Virus record (IMG/VR): IMGVR_UViG_3300028029_000004
Span: 1-29,131 of that record
From: a virus
DNA: 29,131 bases
Reading direction: 5' to 3' (one strand)
Shown here one piece after another: positions 1 through 29,131 of this stretch. Under the pieces are notes generated by a model, which saw only the letters and a program-made list of their open reading frames with translations, was not told where the DNA came from and searched no databases. Positions within the stretch are counted from its first letter, which is position 1. Each line of letters starts with the position of its first letter. A program made the position numbers and the translations under genes.

Positions 1-32
1 ACAAAGCTTATCGCTCCAAACATAGGGAAGAG
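1..32. repeat. Terminal overlap: nt 1-32 equal nt 29100-29131 (circular or circularly permuted genome closed by assembly)
   Basis: ACAAAGCTTATCGCTCCAAACATAGGGAAGAG is present at both window ends (32/32). The HNH reading frame is continuous across the join. Confidence 0.8.
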
Positions 33-3101: not shown

Positions 3102-3341
3102 ATGGCAAATGAAGAATTCCAGGAAAACGTAACCAAGAGGGAACCTGACAGGGGTAGCTGTACCGAGCTAAGCGCAAGGATAGATACAACCAGTTATGAC
3201 GACGAAGAGGTACTCATTATTTCAGACGGTCGGTTGTATGTTGGGCTGTTGTTCCCCGATATCGACATCCCGCCAGACATCCGCAAGAGGCTGGAAAAAA
3301 GAGAATCAGTGCGGGTTGACCTTGTCTGGAAGGATGAATGA
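3102..3341 (+). CDS. Hypothetical protein (79 aa)
   Basis: GGAGGAAG SD 6 nt upstream of ATG 3102. Clean ORF in the co-directional gene string. Confidence 0.55.
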   Translation: MANEEFQENVTKREPDRGSCTELSARIDTTSYDDEEVLIISDGRLYVGLLFPDIDIPPDIRKRLEKRESVRVDLVWKDE

Positions 3342-3454
3342 TGCGAGAATACTGGCACATGTTAAAAGACGTACTCGGGGTATGGGGGATAATCGCCTGT
3401 GCGGTTAGTATAGCGGTTATTGTAGGACAGATAATCTGGATACTCTTAAAGTGA
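3338..3454 (+). CDS. Micro-protein, 38 aa, single transmembrane helix (not in ORF track)
   Basis: ATG 3338 overlaps the stop of 3102-3341 (ATGA). Translation MMREYWHMLKDVLGVWGIIACAVSIAVIVGQIIWILLK. Stop TGA 3452-3454. Confidence 0.5.
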   Translation: MMREYWHMLKDVLGVWGIIACAVSIAVIVGQIIWILLK

Positions 3455-3528
3455 GTAGAAATGAGCAGGTTCTCATGGTAGGGTACGGATTATTATACGG
3501 CTGAGTGAGAATAAAATGTCAATACTTA

Positions 3529-3557
3529 TTGTACTGTCAAAATTATGACAGTGTAAT
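3529..3557 (+). promoter_or_regulatory. Candidate promoter TTGTAC-N17-TGTAAT. The 20-bp palindrome ACTGTCAaaattaTGACAGT (3533-3552) covers the spacer and overlaps both hexamers.
   Basis: Hexamers at 3529-3534 and 3552-3557. Perfect 7+7 inverted repeat at 3533-3539 / 3546-3552. Located 23 nt upstream of the small terminase start. Confidence 0.45.
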
Positions 3558-3579
3558 GTTCGGAATAGGAGGTTTAGTT

Positions 3580-4188
3580 ATGGAGAGAACTTGGAAGACC
3601 TGTGGCGATTTCGGGGGGAAACGAAGGGACGGTAAGCCTTGCGGTAATAAAGCCGGTATGAAGACTAATCATAAAGGCACTGGTCGGTGTTACAGACATG
3701 GCGGATGTTCGATGGGTCGTCCTTTGGTACATGGCCGGTATGCCAAGGGTTTACGTGGCAAGTTGGCTGCAAAGATTGTCGAGCATATGAATGATCCTGA
3801 CCCTCTGGACTTGCGTTCGGAGCTGGCTGTGCTCAGAGCCAGGATTAGTTTCCTCACAGAGAAGCTTGATAAGGCCCCCGAGAAGTCTGATGAGGATGCA
3901 GATAATTCTACATCGGCTTTCAGTGCATCCGCAGAGATACTTAATGTCATTTACGGGATACAGAAGGTTATAGACACTATTAGCAAAGTGCAAGCGAGGA
4001 AAGCGCTTACAGCTCGGGAAAGTCTCTATCTTCTTACTTCTTTAGCAGATGTTATACAGACGGAGATACATTACATTAGGGGGGTGGATATCAGTGACGA
4101 AGACGCAATCAGACACATACTTAGTAAGCTCAAGAGTCGTTTTGCCCTTTCTCAACCTTTTGGAGGAGAAGCTCTTATCGAAGGTTAA
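3580..4188 (+). CDS. Terminase small subunit (putative)
   Basis: AGGAGG at 3567-3572, 7 nt before ATG 3580; the ORF-track start at 3505 has no SD. Basic Gly/Cys/His-rich N-terminus (GKPCGNKAGMKTNHKGTGRCYRHGGCSMGRP) of a kind seen in some phage small terminases. It sits immediately upstream of the large terminase and overlaps it. Confidence 0.55.
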   Translation: MERTWKTCGDFGGKRRDGKPCGNKAGMKTNHKGTGRCYRHGGCSMGRPLVHGRYAKGLRGKLAAKIVEHMNDPDPLDLRSELAVLRARISFLTEKLDKAPEKSDEDADNSTSAFSASAEILNVIYGIQKVIDTISKVQARKALTARESLYLLTSLADVIQTEIHYIRGVDISDEDAIRHILSKLKSRFALSQPFGGEALIEG

Positions 4189-5563
4189 CCCTGTAGAAGC
4201 TGGCGATGATCCTGTACAGTTTTCTATTGATGTTCTCGGGGTTACACCATGGGAAATTCCTGCTCAGGTTATGAGGTCTGTGCGTGATAACGTGTACACG
4301 ACTGTACGTGCGGGGCATAAGGTATCTAAATCTCACTTGGCGGCTAGTACGGCTATCTGGTGGGCTTTAGGGCCGCAAGATTCCAGGGTATTGCTTACGT
4401 CATATAAGGATTCATCGGTTAGGGACATTATATGGCGTGAATTAAGAAATCTAAAAGACAGGGCTTTAGTACCTCTCCCGGGAACATTAAATAAGATGCC
4501 TGCTAATGGGTGGGATCTAGGAAATGGGAGGCAGATAGTTGGGCGTGTATCTGATAAGCCGGAGGGTGTAGCCGGTATATCTTCGCCGAGGCTATTAATC
4601 ATTGTAGACGAAGCTAATGGGCTTGAGGATAATATCTTTGAAGCCCTAGAAGGTAATATGGCCGGTGGAGCCCATATGCTATTATTGGGAAACCCCACCA
4701 GAGTTACTGGACGTTTCTATGATTCTTTTCACGGACAGAAAGAAATCTGGTCACGTTTCCATATCCCGTCTACGGAATCCCCTAACGTCAAAGCTGGGAA
4801 GATAGTAATACCAGGGTTAGCTACTCAGGAATGGGTTGATGCCCGTAAGAAGGTCTTCACTCCTGCACAATTCGCTGTCAGAGTTATGGGAGAGTTCGCA
4901 GAGTCTGATATAGAAACCCTGATTAAGAGGGAATGGATAGATGCTGCTTTCGACAGGCATGACCAATGGGTACGAGACGGTAAACCCGGGGTTTTTATGT
5001 CCATAGGGGGCGACCCAGCGAGTTCCGGCGGCCCAGACTCATGTACTATGGTCACGAGATACGATGTTGGTATAGAGGCTATACATCGGTATCCGAATAA
5101 AGGACCTCTTGATCTGGCAGATGTTATTGAACAAGAATATCGTTCGAGAGGAAGCAATTCTACGGCCATTGTAGACGTACTTTCGGGCCCAGGGACTGCT
5201 GATAGTCTGAAGCGTAAGAAGGTGCCGTGTATCGCTTATAAGGGCAGCGAGAAGACAGACAGGCGTGATGCCACAGGATACTTGGAATTTGTCCGTGTGA
5301 GGGCTGCAGCATACTGGAAACTGAGAGACGGCCTGAACCCCGAGCGTGGTATCAACATGATTCTCCCCAGAAACGAAGCCCTTGTAAAGCAACTTGTATG
5401 TATAGATTTCTGGGAAAACGTAAACGGCAAGATATGTATTACAACGAAGGATGATGTCAAAGCTTTGCTTAGTGGAGAATCTCCGGATGAAGCCGATGGT
5501 GTTGTTATGGCATGGTGGGTATTACCACGTCCGAAGCATATTTCCATCAGAGATGCTTTATAA
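4094..5563 (+). CDS. Terminase large subunit
   Basis: Pre-Walker motif VTPWEIPAQV, deviant Walker A RAGHKVSKSH, Walker B LLIIVDEANG, LLLGNPT, and nuclease-domain SIGGDPASSG. The start is uncertain: GTG 4094 follows the GGGGGGTGG SD, while ATG 4049 (ORF track) has no SD. ATG 4271 is too far downstream because it would remove the conserved PWE motif. Confidence 0.85.
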   Translation: MTKTQSDTYLVSSRVVLPFLNLLEEKLLSKVNPVEAGDDPVQFSIDVLGVTPWEIPAQVMRSVRDNVYTTVRAGHKVSKSHLAASTAIWWALGPQDSRVLLTSYKDSSVRDIIWRELRNLKDRALVPLPGTLNKMPANGWDLGNGRQIVGRVSDKPEGVAGISSPRLLIIVDEANGLEDNIFEALEGNMAGGAHMLLLGNPTRVTGRFYDSFHGQKEIWSRFHIPSTESPNVKAGKIVIPGLATQEWVDARKKVFTPAQFAVRVMGEFAESDIETLIKREWIDAAFDRHDQWVRDGKPGVFMSIGGDPASSGGPDSCTMVTRYDVGIEAIHRYPNKGPLDLADVIEQEYRSRGSNSTAIVDVLSGPGTADSLKRKKVPCIAYKGSEKTDRRDATGYLEFVRVRAAAYWKLRDGLNPERGINMILPRNEALVKQLVCIDFWENVNGKICITTKDDVKALLSGESPDEADGVVMAWWVLPRPKHISIRDAL

Positions 5564-5686
5564 TGGAGTATTTTAATATTCACAAACGGATATTCAATTA
5601 TCGTTCTACAACACGGGTATCCTGCATAGAGGGGGGTCAGCTTGAATAAACGGACAAAATTAAGATTGGTGGTTTCGGGACGTGCT

Positions 5687-5727
5687 ACTGTCAAATACTT
5701 GACACTTGATTTTTTTTTGACTATGAT
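5687..5727 (+). promoter_or_regulatory. Near-consensus sigma70 promoter TTGACA(5699-5704)-N17-TATGAT(5722-5727), overlapped by the operator-like site ACTGTCAaatactTGACACT (5687-5706)
   Basis: Hexamers read directly from the sequence. The spacer contains a T9 run (5710-5718). It lies in the 268-nt gap between the terminase stop and the portal start. Confidence 0.6.
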
Positions 5728-5831
5728 CAGATCAAATGAGAACGAGGGGTACATATTTGAAAACTCCATTACAGTTCTTTAGGACATATAGGCGCAACAA
5801 GGTCAAACGATTGGCTGCTGAGGTCTTACGT

Positions 5832-7439
5832 ATGTCTAACTCAGGGGGCCAAATAGGTCCTAGAAACCCTGAAGTTAAGAACATTACTATTCCTGTCTAT
5901 CGGAAAATGCTTCGAGATAGCGAAGTAGCAAGCGATTTAACTCTAAAAGAATTGCTTATGGTCCCGACCTTACGAGTAATGGAACCGGACGGGGACGAGA
6001 AATCCAAAAAAGCCACTCAGTTTATAAAGGCTATTGAACAGGCCATGCCTGGAAGTCCTATATCTGTATACAGGAACCAAGCGTTGCATGAGGCCTTGAT
6101 ATCGGGAATGTTAATCGGGGAACCGGTCTTTAAGAAGATGGATATTCCTGGTTTTGGGGTAGTTAAAGGCTTGTCCGGAATCACTATTGCTAATTCGGAA
6201 GATTTTTCAGGCAATACAGAAATGGATGAATACGGCAAGATAGAACATTTTATCCAGAATCGCAGCGGATCGGTAGAATTGAGTCCTGACGAGGTGTTGT
6301 ATTATGGGTACAAGACAATATCCGGTAATCCTGAAGGTATTTCTGCTCTATTTGCAGCACACGACCCATGGAAGCTAAAGCTTATCGCTTTCAGGAATCT
6401 ATCTACATTCATGAATACGAACGCATCCGGTTTTAGTATCATGGGTATCCCTCCCGATTACTTCATTGACGAGAGAGAAGATGCTCTACAATTCTTACGT
6501 AACCTTGCCGAGACTGGTAATATAGCCAAGCCCACGGATTGGGAGCTGGACTTCGAGAATCCTCCAGGAGATGCGGGTAAGCACTTTATCAGTATTATTC
6601 AGGAGATTTGTAATAAGAGTATCCGTAAAGCTATTCTATATGACGAGACTATAACAGCCGAATCCTTGCATTCGTGGAGATCCGGAACAGACGAAACTAA
6701 CCAAAACCTAGTTATTGAGATGATGAAGGCCGAAGGAGAAGAATTCGCCGAGTCGTTTATACAGGAACAGCTCTACAGAAGGATACTTGATGTTAATGGA
6801 ATGCGGGATTATCCAACACCTCTAGCTGTTACAGGGCTTGCTATGCAGAAGAAAGAGCCTGTTGCTATTTTAAGTGCCTTGGGTAAGGCTAAATCTGACG
6901 GAATACTAGACAAGGTAGCTCTACCTGCAGAAACTCAGGCTCAGATAATGGCTGAAATGGTAGACTCCATAGGAACCCCCTGCGACGCCTCTCAGATTGA
7001 AGTTATTTCTCAGGGTATAGAAACATCTGACGGGTTGAGTTCCGGGGACTACGCAAGGGCCAGTGCGGTTATCTCTGATTTATGGGACAAGACTCTCCCA
7101 GGTATTGTAAATGGACTGAACAACTCCTTGCCGGTAGCTTACGATGATGAGAATTATGGCATTATGCGTGAATTGGTAGAGAAGGCTATTACGACAGGTG
7201 GTGGAGACTTCCGCAAGGCTTTAACAGGGCTGAGCGCCAATCGAGATGCGGGGGCTGCCAGTAATTCTGCGTATTTAAGGCTCAAAAGGGGTTACAGTCG
7301 CCTATCAGAGAGGATTTTCGCAGAGTTGAACGATTCTATACAGAAAAAGTTGGATTCTAAACAGGCTTTTACTAACGTTGAGGCTTGCCTGGAGGATCAA
7401 AAAGCGGAATTCATCTCAATTGTATTGGAGAGACTATGA
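5832..7439 (+). CDS. Portal protein (putative)
   Basis: 535-aa ORF directly after the large terminase. GAGG at 5820-5823, 8 nt before ATG 5832. The ORF-track start at 5736 would sit at the predicted transcription start. Confidence 0.6.
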   Translation: MSNSGGQIGPRNPEVKNITIPVYRKMLRDSEVASDLTLKELLMVPTLRVMEPDGDEKSKKATQFIKAIEQAMPGSPISVYRNQALHEALISGMLIGEPVFKKMDIPGFGVVKGLSGITIANSEDFSGNTEMDEYGKIEHFIQNRSGSVELSPDEVLYYGYKTISGNPEGISALFAAHDPWKLKLIAFRNLSTFMNTNASGFSIMGIPPDYFIDEREDALQFLRNLAETGNIAKPTDWELDFENPPGDAGKHFISIIQEICNKSIRKAILYDETITAESLHSWRSGTDETNQNLVIEMMKAEGEEFAESFIQEQLYRRILDVNGMRDYPTPLAVTGLAMQKKEPVAILSALGKAKSDGILDKVALPAETQAQIMAEMVDSIGTPCDASQIEVISQGIETSDGLSSGDYARASAVISDLWDKTLPGIVNGLNNSLPVAYDDENYGIMRELVEKAITTGGGDFRKALTGLSANRDAGAASNSAYLRLKRGYSRLSERIFAELNDSIQKKLDSKQAFTNVEACLEDQKAEFISIVLERL

Positions 7440-9082: not shown

Positions 9083-9979
9083 ATGGATCTTTACACGCTG
9101 ACTGATGCCGAGCTGAATCTGTATGTCACTTCTATCGTAGAGGCTTATACCAATGAGTACTACGCAACTACAGATATGGCTCCTGATGTACCAGTAGGTA
9201 GCTCTAGCTTTGCTTATAGAAAGCTCCAGCGCTCTGGTGCTGTCCAAAGTTCTGTTGTAGGTGAATATGGTGAAGGTATTCCTTTCGGGCAAAGTTCCGA
9301 ATGGGAAAAGCTCAAAACTGAAGACCACTTCAGAATAGGGCTTATCCCTGATGCTGTACGTCTACTTGGCAGAGAAGCTGCTATAGACCTTGCTTCTGAA
9401 CTCGCTGATGGTATTGGCGAAGAGTTCAAAAGAGAGGCCAACGTAGACTTCGCTAATTGGATCACCAAAACTTCTAATTTTACCAATCATGGGATTCCAG
9501 GAACCAAATGGGATGCTCCTAACGGTGATCCTGCGAAGGATATCTCCGCTAAGATTCTTACTATCTCTACGATAGTTGGAAGGGCTCCTAATGGGCTGGG
9601 AATGACTCCTGATGTCTTCAGGGAAATAGCAACGAACCACGCTAGAAGCGTAGATGGTAACCAAGCTACTGCGAGCAAGCAGGCGGTATTGAATTATATC
9701 GCTGCAGACGCTCTCACAACCCTTGCTATTTGCGATGTCGATAATGGAAAAGGAGTGAATGCCTATGGTACCAAGAACCTATGGCTGTTCTACAACGCTC
9801 CTACAGCTTCCAGAGTGAGTCCTTCGTTTGCCAGTACGTTCCGGTTCAAGAAAGGTTCTTATACCAAAACTGCGGTAATAAATAGTCCTGCTGGTCAGGC
9901 TCTTTATGCCCACAGTAACTACTTGACTCATGTTCGTAACGAGAAGGCATGTTACTACTTCCACGGAGTACTGACTTAA
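9083..9979 (+). CDS. Major capsid protein (putative)
   Basis: GGGAGGTG SD. 298-aa ORF after the scaffold and decoration genes, the classical position. Confidence 0.6.
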   Translation: MDLYTLTDAELNLYVTSIVEAYTNEYYATTDMAPDVPVGSSSFAYRKLQRSGAVQSSVVGEYGEGIPFGQSSEWEKLKTEDHFRIGLIPDAVRLLGREAAIDLASELADGIGEEFKREANVDFANWITKTSNFTNHGIPGTKWDAPNGDPAKDISAKILTISTIVGRAPNGLGMTPDVFREIATNHARSVDGNQATASKQAVLNYIAADALTTLAICDVDNGKGVNAYGTKNLWLFYNAPTASRVSPSFASTFRFKKGSYTKTAVINSPAGQALYAHSNYLTHVRNEKACYYFHGVLT

Positions 9980-26424: not shown

Positions 26425-26469
26425 AACCCCCAACGTGGGGGTTGACATTGGGGATAACCATGCTATGAT
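26425..26469 (+). promoter_or_regulatory. Near-consensus promoter TTGACA(26442-26447)-N16-TGcTATGAT(26464-26469), abutted by the 19-bp GC-rich inverted repeat AACCCCCAacgTGGGGGTT (26425-26443)
   Basis: Hexamers and the 8+8 inverted repeat were read directly. GGAGGTGAG SD and ATG 26494 lie downstream. Confidence 0.6.
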
Positions 26470-26493: not shown

Positions 26494-26742
26494 ATGAGTA
26501 GAGGAAGACATAGAAGCCATATTCAGTTGAAGAAGCTAGAGGAAGACTGGCTGTTGAGTCGAGTAGCTGCAGACGAGGAAGAAGAACTGTCCTTCAGTGC
26601 AGCGGTGCGAGAAATCCTGGTAACCCACCCAATATTCAGGGAAGTTCAAAGGCGGTTACAGGTAGATCCTGGGTTCAAAGAGGAATACGAGGTGCTGGTA
26701 GCTAAAGGCAGAGAGATTAGACGTGCTAACAAACGGAGGTAG
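26494..26742 (+). CDS. Ribbon-helix-helix (CopG/Arc-like) DNA-binding protein (putative early regulator)
   Basis: GGAGGTGAG SD. N-terminal pattern SHIQLKKLEEDWLLSRVAADEEEELSFSAAVREIL fits strand-helix-helix. It is the first gene after a strong promoter. Confidence 0.5.
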   Translation: MSRGRHRSHIQLKKLEEDWLLSRVAADEEEELSFSAAVREILVTHPIFREVQRRLQVDPGFKEEYEVLVAKGREIRRANKRR

Positions 26743-26746
26743 AGAG

Positions 26747-26959
26747 ATGAAGCATGTGAGTAAGATAAACAAGGTTCTGAACCTATTATTGAAAGGACAT
26801 ACAATATCCCAGCAGGAGGCTATAGCATTCTTTAGTTATTACCGCCTGAGCGATGGAATCTACAGATTGAAGAAAAGAGGATACGATATTAAGACTACAA
26901 TGATATACCTTCCAAATAACGAGAGGTATGCTAGATATGAACTAAGGAGGCGTTTCTAA
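26747..26959 (+). CDS. Helix-turn-helix DNA-binding protein (HTH_39-like, 70 aa)
   Basis: GGAGGTAGAG SD before ATG 26747. Pattern KVLNLLLKGHTISQQEAIAFFSYYRLSDGIYRLKKRGYDIKT....RYARYEL matches the small phage winged-HTH family as I remember it. Confidence 0.55.
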   Translation: MKHVSKINKVLNLLLKGHTISQQEAIAFFSYYRLSDGIYRLKKRGYDIKTTMIYLPNNERYARYELRRRF

Positions 26960-28719: not shown

Positions 28720-28926
28720 ATGAAAGCAGGAATCATGACCAAGCAAGAGGCTGATAGGATTACCAACCGACAGATCGCTCAGTTACTTGATTCAATCGAG
28801 GACGTGTTCACGTTACCCGATATTGTTAAACAGCAAATTATCAAGTATATGCATTATCTGAAGGCTAATCTTATCGTAAATCAGGAAGGACTTACCAATG
28901 GAGAACATCACCAAGATTTGCGGTAA
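28720..28926 (+). CDS. Hypothetical protein (68 aa; 63 aa if started at ATG 28735)
   Basis: First ORF after the structured leader. ATG 28735 has the better SD (AGCAGGA). Its 3' end overlaps the HNH start by 29 nt. Confidence 0.5.
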   Translation: MKAGIMTKQEADRITNRQIAQLLDSIEDVFTLPDIVKQQIIKYMHYLKANLIVNQEGLTNGEHHQDLR

Positions 28927-29131
28927 ATGCGGAGTACTGAAGCCTGTTACCGAGTTTCACAAGAACAAAAGCACGACTGATGGGCTACATCATCAGTGTA
29001 AAACATGTAGGACTGAATATTATGCTGAGCATCGGGAGGAGATAATTGCTCGTAAAAGGGCTTATCGTTTCGAGCATAGGGAAGAGATACGAGCCCGCAA
29101 CAAAGCTTATCGCTCCAAACATAGGGAAGAG
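28898..29131 (+). CDS. HNH endonuclease, N-terminal part (continues at nt 1-329 through the terminal overlap)
   Basis: ATG 28898 with the frame open to the window end, so there is no stop and it is absent from the ORF track. Translation MENITKICGKCGVLKPVTEFHKNKSTTDGLHHQCKTCRTEYYAEHREEIIARKRAYRFEHREEIRARNKAYRSKHREE has an N-terminal CxxC...CxxC zinc finger followed by 15-aa YxxxHREE repeats. Confidence 0.8.
   Translation, partial: MENITKICGKCGVLKPVTEFHKNKSTTDGLHHQCKTCRTEYYAEHREEIIARKRAYRFEHREEIRARNKAYRSKHREE
29100..29131. repeat. Second copy of the terminal overlap (equals nt 1-32)
   Basis: 32/32 identity with the window start. Confidence 0.8.

What the first reader, a model, noticed from the sequence alone, without database searches (positions are those of the whole stretch)
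3533..3552. Shared 20-bp operator ACTGTCA-N6-TGACA(G/C)T in the terminase and portal upstream regions
Seen directly: ACTGTCAaaattaTGACAGT (3533-3552) is a perfect 7+7 inverted repeat lying between the TTGTAC/TGTAAT hexamers upstream of the small terminase gene. ACTGTCAaatactTGACACT (5687-5706) is an almost identical site (13/14 half-site positions). It overlaps the -35 of the strong promoter upstream of the portal gene. A further half-site-like word, TGTCAATACTT (3517-3527), resembles TGTCAAATACTT at 5690-5701.

I found no other full copy in the window.

Inference: two copies of a 14-nt specificity pattern at the only two intergenic gaps of the packaging/head module make a common dimeric DNA-binding regulator likely. 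This could be a late-gene switch, possibly the RHH or HTH protein at 26494-26959. Alternatively they are recognition sites for the small terminase (pac/cos-related). As RNA or DNA hairpins they might also act as weak terminators.
Basis: partly seen in the sequence, partly recalled or inferred. Interest (0 to 1): 0.62.

Follow-up and report, generated by a model that had tools for sequence, protein, structure and literature searches.

The report
Paired promoter-overlapping operator dyads in phage
Two copies of a 20-base mirror-symmetric DNA site lie in front of the terminase genes and on the promoter of the head/tail genes of a small uncultivated phage, and related phages keep the same kind of site in the same place, so it is very probably the docking site of a DNA-binding protein that controls the late genes: a real but ordinary kind of phage switch.

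Summary
ACTGTCAaaattaTGACAGT (3533-3552) and ACTGTCAaatactTGACACT (5687-5706) are the only two copies in this 29.1-kb circular phage genome. Chance expects about 0.001 such pairs in its intergenic DNA.

New here:
- The right half of site 2 is the -35 TTGACA of an 11/12 sigma-70 promoter that drives the portal and structural genes. Relatives keep a promoter in this gap.
- The dyad YGTCA-N6-TGACR recurs in the first gap after terL in six diverged relatives. In three of them, as in site 2, it sits in the same register over the -35.
- The closest structural relative, L011, also has two copies (one perfect, one over the -35), and both carry its own half-site variant ATCGTCA. This co-variation points to a sequence-specific, probably phage-encoded, dimeric protein.
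- The two early promoters lack the partner half-site.

Best reading (about 0.5): an operator pair. A dimer occludes the portal promoter, and a perfect auxiliary site lies 2.15 kb away, just before terS. The binding protein is not identified; the only recognisable candidate is a 78-aa winged-helix protein.

A packaging (TerS) site is not excluded. The terminator reading is not supported. The tool for sequencing runs was closed, so genome ends and transcripts could not be tested.

Earlier notes of this scan describe similar TGTCA/TGACA promoter dyads, with other spacings, on other DNA (CPR bacteria and other uncultivated phages).

The parts
3533..3552 (.). Site 1: perfect dyad ACTGTCA-N6-TGACAGT, 28 nt before the terS ATG and 14 nt before its AGGAGG ribosome-binding site
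   Evidence: On the + strand RNA it extends to a 13-bp hairpin with 3 G-U pairs (-11.8 kcal/mol, z -4.5).
5687..5706 (.). Site 2: dyad ACTGTCA-N6-TGACACT (13/14). Its right arm is the -35 of the portal promoter; its centre lies at about -37.5.
5699..5727 (+). Portal/structural-gene promoter TTGACA-17-TATGAT (11/12), with inferred start near 5734
   Evidence: Relatives carry promoter-like TTGACA/TTGACG boxes in the same gap.
5710..5718 (+). T9 run inside the promoter spacer, 5 nt after the weak site-2 hairpin
   Evidence: Not reported as a terminator by the scan.
3529..3557 (+). Doubtful weak promoter TTGTAC-17-TGTAAT (8/12) that encloses site 1
   Evidence: read from the sequence; not listed by the promoter scan
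3517..3527 (.). TGTCAATACTT, a third TGTCAA word. All three intergenic TGTCAA words of the genome lie in these two gaps.
3580..4188 (+). Small terminase gene (202 aa; Cys/His/Gly-rich N-terminus; no Pfam or PHROG hit)
4142..5563 (+). Large terminase gene
5757..7439 (+). Portal gene (Portal_Mu). Start taken as TTG 5757, preceded by GAGGGG; the N-terminus MKTPLQFF matches MRTPIQF and similar in relatives.
26723..26959 (+). 78-aa winged-helix protein (HTH_39). It is the only recognisable candidate for a phage-encoded binder; there is no evidence that it binds.

Best explanation
The two 20-bp dyads are operators for one sequence-specific dimeric DNA-binding protein, probably phage-encoded.

Shown:
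- The half-site centres are 11 bp apart, which is one helical turn.
- Site 2 lies exactly over the -35 hexamer of the near-consensus promoter that drives the portal and the roughly 18 kb of structural and lysis genes behind it.

Inferred:
- A protein bound at site 2 would keep sigma-70 region 4 off the -35 and so repress or time late transcription.
- Site 1 is the perfect, presumably higher-affinity copy. It lies 2154 bp upstream, directly before terS. It would act as an auxiliary operator, either blocking or occupying the terS entry or looping to site 2.
- The two early promoters (26442, 28575) carry no partner half-site, so they would escape this control.
- The sign of regulation and the identity of the protein are not established.
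For: - Only two copies exist, both in the two largest gaps of the packaging/head module, far above chance.
- Site 2's right arm is the -35 of an 11/12 promoter.
- YGTCA-N6-TGACR lies in the first gap after terL in L011, L009, L043, L035 and L087, and in degenerate form (one core mismatch) in L093.
- In W, L011, L009 and L043 the right arm is a -35 with a -10 16-17 nt further on. In L035 the dyad covers the -10, the start site and the ATG.
- GTCA-N6-TGAC occurs in 4 of 15 terL-portal gaps, against 0.023 in shuffles. None of 20,000 shuffles reached 3. Given the TGAC words present, P = 1.6e-6.
- The flanking intergenic DNA of these phages does not align, so the dyad is kept by selection and not by recent descent.
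- L011 has its own pair: ATCGTCAaagactTGACGGT over the -35, and a perfect ATCGTCAaaaatgTGACGAT 2565 bp away. That is 2 hits against 0.13 expected. Both copies carry C...G where both W copies carry T...A, as expected when a protein and its sites change together.
- The early promoters lack the partner half.
- The 5-N6-5 geometry with TGTCA half-sites is a documented format for HTH dimers: the CRP/FNR-family protein Cmr has the SELEX consensus TGTCA-N6-(C/T)GACA (PMC4705688).
Against: - No binding protein is identified. Pfam finds only one small winged helix in the phage and no CRP-like protein.
- Several relatives with the same gene order have a promoter but no inverted left arm: L001, L005, L006, L079, L080, L094, L095.
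- No relative has a copy upstream of terS.
- The position relative to the promoter varies: about -50 in L093, and just before a ribosome-binding site in L087 and at site 1.
- A near-consensus late promoter held by a repressor that must first be made is an awkward design for a lytic phage.
- L011's second copy lies inside a coding region.
- The motif was defined from W, so the cross-phage statistics are partly post hoc.
Confidence: 0.5

Rival explanations
1. Packaging signal: the dyads are recognition sites of the terminase (small-subunit binding sites, or a two-fold symmetric cutting site) that bracket the terS-terL operon.
For: - Site 1 lies directly upstream of terS, where cos or pac sites usually lie.
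- In all relatives the dyad keeps a constant place next to the 3' end of terL, whatever gene or promoter register follows.
- W and L011 share a 55% identical TerS and each has its own half-site variant.
- TerS is a DNA-binding protein with an unclassified N-terminus.
Against: - Four of the sites sit in an identical register over a -35, which a packaging site has no reason to do.
- Two cutting or recognition sites 2.15 kb apart would be hazardous for packaging.
- Relatives with the same TerS family (L001, L012, L013, L006) have no dyad upstream of terS or in the gap.
- No contig of any relative ends at a dyad.
- L011's second copy lies in a gene after the portal.
Confidence: 0.17
2. RNA element: the sites act as hairpins on the + strand transcript, as a processing or stability signal, as the target of an RNA-binding protein, or as a weak terminator after terL.
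For: - Site 1 folds into a 13-bp hairpin on the + strand only, extended by three G-U pairs (-11.8 kcal/mol, z -4.5). The minus strand gives 7 bp.
- Both arm changes in L093 (TGTCG...TGACG) would be G-U pairs on the + strand.
- Site 2 is followed 5 nt later by T9.
Against: - The site 2 hairpin is weak: 6 bp, -4.8 kcal/mol, and z -0.27 in its 76-nt context. The terminator scan lists neither site.
- No U-tract follows the dyad in L011, L009, L043, L035 or L087.
- The arm sequence itself is conserved across distant phages and does not covary freely. L009 and L043 have C-A mismatches at the outer pair.
- In four phages the element lies upstream of the portal transcript start.
Confidence: 0.1
3. Promoter architecture without a dedicated regulator: TTGACA-like words cluster around these promoters, and the inverted left arm is a by-product (a reverse -35-like box or an IHF-like TCAA-N4-TTG core) or chance.
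For: - Forward TTGACA is strongly enriched in these gaps: 10 seen against 0.54 expected.
- TGACA and TGTCA differ only in the middle base. L001 and L011 also show direct repeats TGACA-N6-TGACA.
- The pattern ACTGTCA-N-AT-N-CTTGACA gave 29 hits in viral contigs. That is roughly my back-of-envelope chance figure of about 28, which rests on my own guess of the collection's size. Only one hit was in a relative.
Against: - The reverse word is not generally enriched: TGTCAA occurs in these gaps only in W.
- Given the TGAC words present, the partner at N6 has P = 1.6e-6.
- Site 1, L035 and L087 have the dyad with no -10 at the right distance.
- Both L011 copies share a phage-specific variant.
- No -10 exists for a minus-strand promoter at either W site (read).
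Confidence: 0.1
4. Binding site of a host global regulator of the CRP/FNR type (TGTCA-N6-TGACA class) that ties late-gene expression to host physiology.
For: - The geometry and half-site equal the published Cmr consensus TGTCA-N6-(C/T)GACA.
- The site is conserved across phages whose proteins are only 25-55% identical.
- No CRP-like protein is found in the phage.
Against: - The centre at -37.5 does not fit class II (-41.5) or class I positions.
- The promoter is already near consensus, so activation is not needed.
- Phage-specific half-site variants (T in both W copies, C in both L011 copies) fit a phage-encoded protein better, unless the hosts differ.
- The host is unknown: there are no prophage relatives in 185,579 species genomes.
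Confidence: 0.1

Closest known systems
CRP/FNR-family 16-bp sites, in particular Cmr (Rv1675c) of the M. tuberculosis complex: TGTCA-N6-(C/T)GACA (PMC4705688). CooA, TGTCA-N6-CGACA, is cited from my own knowledge.
   Same: The 5-N6-5 inverted repeat, the half-site TGTCA, half-site centres one helical turn apart, and overlap with the -35 region.
   Different: No cNMP-binding or CRP-like protein is found in the phage. The centre is at about -37.5, not -41.5 or -61.5. The promoter has a consensus -35, so occlusion is more likely than activation. The outer base varies per phage.
Primary plus distant auxiliary operators with looping: lambda OL/OR (about 2.3 kb apart), and lac O1 with O2 inside lacZ (from my own knowledge).
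   Same: One copy lies on the promoter. A second, better copy lies 2.15 kb away in W and 2.57 kb away in L011. In L011 the second copy is inside a coding region, like lac O2.
   Different: Looping is only inferred. There is no cluster of three adjacent operators, no divergent promoter pair and no repressor gene next to the site.
Late-promoter dyads of P2-like phages (TGT-N12-ACA, bound by Ogr/Delta/B) and of Mu (Mor and C sites overlapping the -35 region), from my own knowledge.
   Same: A dyad element shared by late promoters, kept across diverged related phages, near or over the -35 region of the promoters for packaging and head genes.
   Different: Those promoters lack a good -35 and need the activator, whereas here the -35 is consensus. 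The spacing and sequence differ. No Ogr_Delta or Mor family hit was found.
TGTCA/TGACA promoter dyads noted earlier in this scan in CPR (Patescibacteria) genomes and in other uncultivated phages (e1-825624, e1-1543131, e1-4331451). These are unchecked AI notes.
   Same: Inverted TGTCA...TGACA half-sites that overlap core promoter elements, repeated at several control regions of one genome. Relatives of this phage also have leaderless promoters, as described in those notes.
   Different: The spacings there are N7-N9 and the proposed binders (TrmB-like, XRE) are not found here. I did not test any link of host or protein.

Membership tests
Dyad-symmetric operator of a dimeric DNA-binding regulator | Inverted repeat with half-sites about one helical turn apart | tested here: met
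   7-N6-7 perfect at site 1 and 13/14 at site 2; the centres of the TGTCA and TGACA cores are 11 bp apart.
Dyad-symmetric operator of a dimeric DNA-binding regulator | More copies than chance, placed in control regions | tested here: met
   2 copies against 0.09 expected at up to 2 mismatches; 0.001 identical palindrome pairs expected in intergenic DNA.
Dyad-symmetric operator of a dimeric DNA-binding regulator | Overlap with core promoter elements | tested here: met
   Site 2's right arm is the -35 of the 11/12 promoter. L011, L009 and L043 show the same register. For site 1 the promoter is doubtful (8/12).
Dyad-symmetric operator of a dimeric DNA-binding regulator | Conservation or co-variation in related genomes | tested here: met
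   Present after terL in 6 diverged relatives. L011 has two copies with its own variant. Absent from 7 other relatives.
Dyad-symmetric operator of a dimeric DNA-binding regulator | A cognate protein that binds the site | not testable with these tools
   Only a candidate exists: the HTH_39 winged helix at 26723-26959. The 82-aa neighbour gave a low-confidence model (pLDDT 63).
CRP/FNR-family binding site | 16-bp TGTNA-N6-TNACA core | tested here: met
   TGTCA-N6-TGACA in both sites; it matches the Cmr consensus.
CRP/FNR-family binding site | Centre at -41.5 (class II) or about -61.5/-71.5 (class I) for activation | tested here: not met
   The centre is at 5696.5 and the inferred start at 5734, giving -37.5. 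The start site is inferred from the -10 and was not mapped.
CRP/FNR-family binding site | A CRP/FNR-family protein in the phage or its host | tested here: inconclusive
   No such domain in the 39 phage proteins scanned in Pfam or PHROGs. The host is unknown.
Intrinsic (Rho-independent) terminator | Stable G+C-rich stem directly followed by a U-tract | tested here: not met
   Neither site is listed by the scan. The site 2 stem is 6 bp with 2 G-C pairs, -4.8 kcal/mol, and the T9 run starts 5 nt later. Site 1 has no U-tract.
cos/pac packaging site | Packaged DNA ends or packaging series start at the site | not testable with these tools
The contig is a circular assembly with a 32-bp overlap.
cos/pac packaging site | Position next to the terminase genes, conserved among phages with related terminases | tested here: inconclusive
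   Always within about 150 nt of the terL stop, but there is no terS-upstream copy in L001, L006, L011, L012 or L013.
Pho box (PhoB) | Two direct CTGTCAT repeats with an 11-bp period, 10 bp upstream of the -10 | tested here: not met
   The W sites are inverted repeats, not direct. The distance from the site's end to the -10 is 15 nt (5707-5721). The consensus is from my own knowledge.
LexA SOS box (gamma/beta-proteobacterial type) | CTGT-N8-ACAG | tested here: not met
   Site 1 reads CTGT-N10-ACAG and site 2 lacks ACAG. The consensus is from my own knowledge.

The most novel reading that the evidence does not exclude
The dyads are not a transcription switch. They are a conserved boundary element of the terminase module: the recognition sites of the packaging machinery (TerS/terminase) that bracket terS-terL. 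The machinery would pair the two copies, or use one as the start signal, and the element has been fused to the portal promoter. This would put a pac/cos-type signal downstream of terL, a position I know of in no described phage.
Probability: 0.13. Interest if true: 0.6.

Novelty: new member of a known kind. Interest (0 to 1): 0.38.

Why it matters
It gives a first readable piece of gene-control code for a clade of uncultivated small phages with no cultured or annotated relative. That code is one conserved late promoter between terminase and portal, and a 20-bp dyad that sits on it. The dyad has a second copy about 2.2-2.6 kb away in the two phages with enough sequence to see it. The half-site difference between the two phages (T...A against C...G in all four half-sites of each) offers a direct way to find the binding protein. 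The concept itself, an operator occluding a -35 with an auxiliary operator, is textbook.

Tried and rejected
- Near-identical DNA in the phage collection: none.
- Single-protein scans of viral contigs with TerL and portal: none.
- L003 and L004 are 100% identical to the window, so they carry no independent information.
- The phages at 37% TerL identity (L007, L008) have no gap after terL.
- Prophage relatives in 185,579 species genomes: none, so no host could be inferred.
- The metagenome scan added only one new locus, L093.
- The pattern scan of viral contigs gave 29 hits. That is roughly my back-of-envelope chance figure, which rests on my own guess of the collection's size. Only L035's contig is related.
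- Terminator reading rejected.
- Minus-strand promoters that would use the left arm as a -35: no -10 at either site (read).
- Pho box, LexA box, Spo0A box and IHF site were considered from memory and rejected on orientation, spacing or the conserved positions.
- Lambda-O-type iterons rejected: two sites 2.15 kb apart and 2.4 kb from the initiator gene do not make an origin array.
- The 82-aa protein at 26494-26742 folded with pLDDT 63, too poor for a fold search.
- PDB sequence search with the winged-helix protein: nothing significant.

Full report
**What the window is**

The window is the whole record: one 29,131-base contig whose ends repeat 32 bases, so the assembly is circular. It has 44.8% G+C and all genes lie on the + strand.

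Annotation by PHROGs and Pfam:
- a replication-initiator-like gene and a DnaB helicase (326-2396);
- small unknown genes;
- terS (3580-4188), overlapping terL (4142-5563);
- a Mu-type portal, followed by head, tail and lysis genes up to about 25.5 kb;
- a largely non-coding stretch;
- an early block that contains one winged-helix protein (HTH_39, 26723-26959) and SSB.

No integrase and no CRP-like protein were found. Nothing similar exists in the annotated phage collection at the DNA level. The best protein matches there are below 30% identity.

**The observation**

Site 1 (3533-3552) is a perfect 7-N6-7 inverted repeat. Site 2 (5687-5706) differs at one arm position. The two share ACTGTCAAA...TGACA.T.

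A perfect 7+7 repeat alone means little: the window has about 22, as chance expects. The repetition is what counts.
- No other copy exists with up to two mismatches (0.09 expected).
- The 5+5 core has no third copy.
- The word ACTGTCA occurs only at these two places on the + strand.
- The expected number of identical 5-N6-5 palindrome pairs in different intergenic regions is 0.001.

**Anatomy**

Site 2's right arm is the -35 of TTGACA-17-TATGAT (5699-5727). This scores 11/12 and is one of three near-consensus promoters in the genome.

With the start inferred at 5734, the dyad centre is at -37.5. The leader then runs to GAGGGG and TTG 5757. I take TTG 5757 as the portal start because MKTPLQFF matches the N-termini of relatives.

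The other two strong promoters, at 26442 and 28575, have no TGNCA word one turn from their -35.

Site 1 lies 28 nt before the terS ATG, between TTGTAC and TGTAAT. That pair scores only 8/12 and is not listed by the scan. terS may therefore be read mainly from upstream.

**Relatives**

L003 and L004 are identical to the window and add nothing. The useful relatives came from protein searches and from contig look-ups and scans.

A promoter-like TTGACA or TTGACG box between terL and the portal is the rule in this group. Forward TTGACA occurs 10 times in these gaps against 0.54 expected.

The inverted left arm is not universal, but it recurs. The sites in the first gap after terL are:

| Locus | Sequence | Position |
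|---|---|---|
| L011 | ATCGTCAAAGACTTGACGGT | right arm = -35, -10 follows 17 nt on |
| L009 | AGCGTCATCATCTTGACATT | right arm = -35, -10 follows 16 nt on |
| L043 | ACCGTCACATTATTGACACA | right arm = -35, -10 follows 17 nt on |
| L035 | ACTGTCATATTCTTGACATG | over the -10, start site and ATG of a leaderless portal gene |
| L093 | ACTGTCGTATTCTTGACGGG | degenerate copy, about -50 |
| L087 | AGTGTCAATATGTTGACAGC | 2 nt before the ribosome-binding site of a gene inserted after terL |

Statistics for the recurrence:
- GTCA-N6-TGAC is in 4 of 15 terL-portal gaps, against 0.023 in shuffles.
- No shuffle out of 20,000 reached three.
- Given the 23 TGAC words present, four partners have P = 1.6e-6.

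The motif was taken from W, so these figures are somewhat flattering. Leaving W out still gives three gaps against about 0.02 expected.

The intergenic DNA around the sites does not align between these phages. Their proteins are 25-74% identical, and the TerL type is mosaic.

**The L011 pair**

L011 is the closest relative in structural genes (portal 46-56%, TerS 55%, TerL only 27-30%). It has a second copy: a perfect ATCGTCA-N6-TGACGAT at 9462-9481, 2565 bp from the one on its -35. That is two hits against 0.13 expected.

Both L011 copies read C...G at the outer core pair, where both W copies read T...A. In both phages the first nine bases of the two copies are identical.

So the pattern is the same in two phages: one perfect copy, one promoter copy, about 2.2-2.6 kb apart. 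Each phage has its own variant. This is what a protein and its sites do when they change together.

L011's second copy lies inside a coding region whose protein sequence is only moderately conserved. This resembles an auxiliary operator such as lac O2, but it could also be a coincidence of coding.

**Mechanism**

The best-supported reading is an operator pair for a dimeric, sequence-specific DNA-binding protein.

- Shown: the dyad geometry, the exact overlap with the -35 in four phages, the recurrence, and the co-variation.
- Inferred: occlusion of sigma region 4 (hence repression or timing of the structural genes), an auxiliary role for site 1 (block or loop), and a phage-encoded binder.

The 5-N6-5 format with TGTCA half-sites is documented for HTH dimers of the CRP/FNR family (Cmr: TGTCA-N6-(C/T)GACA, PMC4705688). 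However, the position (-37.5) and the lack of such a protein in the phage mean I do not file it as a CRP site.

**Rivals**

- Packaging site. This keeps some weight. The dyad's most constant feature is its place next to the end of terL, site 1 lies where cos/pac sites usually lie, and W and L011 share TerS. The identical register over the -35, the hazard of two sites 2 kb apart, and the absence from other phages with the same TerS family argue against it.
- RNA hairpin. This has two hints: the + strand extension of site 1 to 13 bp with G-U pairs and the two G-U-compatible changes in L093. The site 2 hairpin is weak, no U-tract is conserved, and the arms are conserved in sequence and do not covary freely.
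- Intrinsic terminator. Not supported.
- Host CRP/FNR-type regulator. Cannot be excluded without the host.

**Comparison and novelty**

This is a new instance of a familiar design in an unstudied phage group. Earlier notes of this scan report TGTCA/TGACA dyads over promoters, with other spacings, in CPR bacteria and in other uncultivated phages. I treated these as leads only and did not test any link.

**Verdict**

The feature is real. The binder is unidentified. Interest is moderate to low.

Noticed in passing
L011:9462-9481 and L011:6897-6916: The relative L011 has its own pair of 20-bp dyads (ATCGTCA-N6-TGACGAT perfect; ATCGTCA-N6-TGACGGT on the portal -35), 2565 bp apart. The perfect copy lies inside the gene after the portal (codons GIVKNVTIE).
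   Followed up: partly
L001:2307-2344; L035:1387-1423; L093:2367-2404: In three relatives the portal gene's ATG lies 6 nt after a -10-like hexamer (TAATAT, CATATT, TAAGTT) that follows a TTGACA box. The portal mRNAs should therefore be leaderless. The window's own portal has a 23-nt leader with GAGGGG.
   Followed up: partly
window 3580-7439 compared with L011:4829-9118: Mosaic terminase module: against L011, TerS is 55% and the portal 46-56% identical, but TerL only 27-30%. TerL has been exchanged between conserved neighbours.
   Followed up: partly
window 3527-3559 (+ strand): Site 1 extends on the + strand RNA to a 13-bp hairpin through three G-U pairs (-11.8 kcal/mol, z -4.5). The minus strand gives only 7 bp. 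The hairpin ends 8 nt before the terS ribosome-binding site.
   Followed up: partly
window 3341-3457: A 38-codon ORF with one hydrophobic helix starts at an ATGA overlap with the stop of 3102-3341. It was called as a gene on an identical contig (L004). It shortens the gap before terS to 122 nt.
   Followed up: no
window 26425-26469: The early promoter TTGACA-16-TATGAT (with TG before the -10) is abutted by a different G+C-rich inverted repeat, AACCCCCaacGTGGGGGTT, whose last two T are the first two bases of the -35. This could be a second operator or a minus-strand terminator.
   Followed up: no
L002:1894-1945: In relative L002 a different perfect palindrome, TACCCTG-T-CAGGGTA, lies 8 nt upstream of a TTGACG-16-TATAAT promoter, in a 410-nt gap between terL and the portal.
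   Followed up: no
window 1-32 and 29100-29131: A 32-base direct terminal repeat closes the contig into a circle, and one ORF runs across the join (28898-29131 plus 1-329).
   Followed up: no
L011:4720-4800: L011 has a clear hairpin plus T7 terminator followed by TTGCGT-17-TATAAT just upstream of terS. In that phage terS-terL is therefore its own transcription unit. The window has no such terminator before terS.
   Followed up: no
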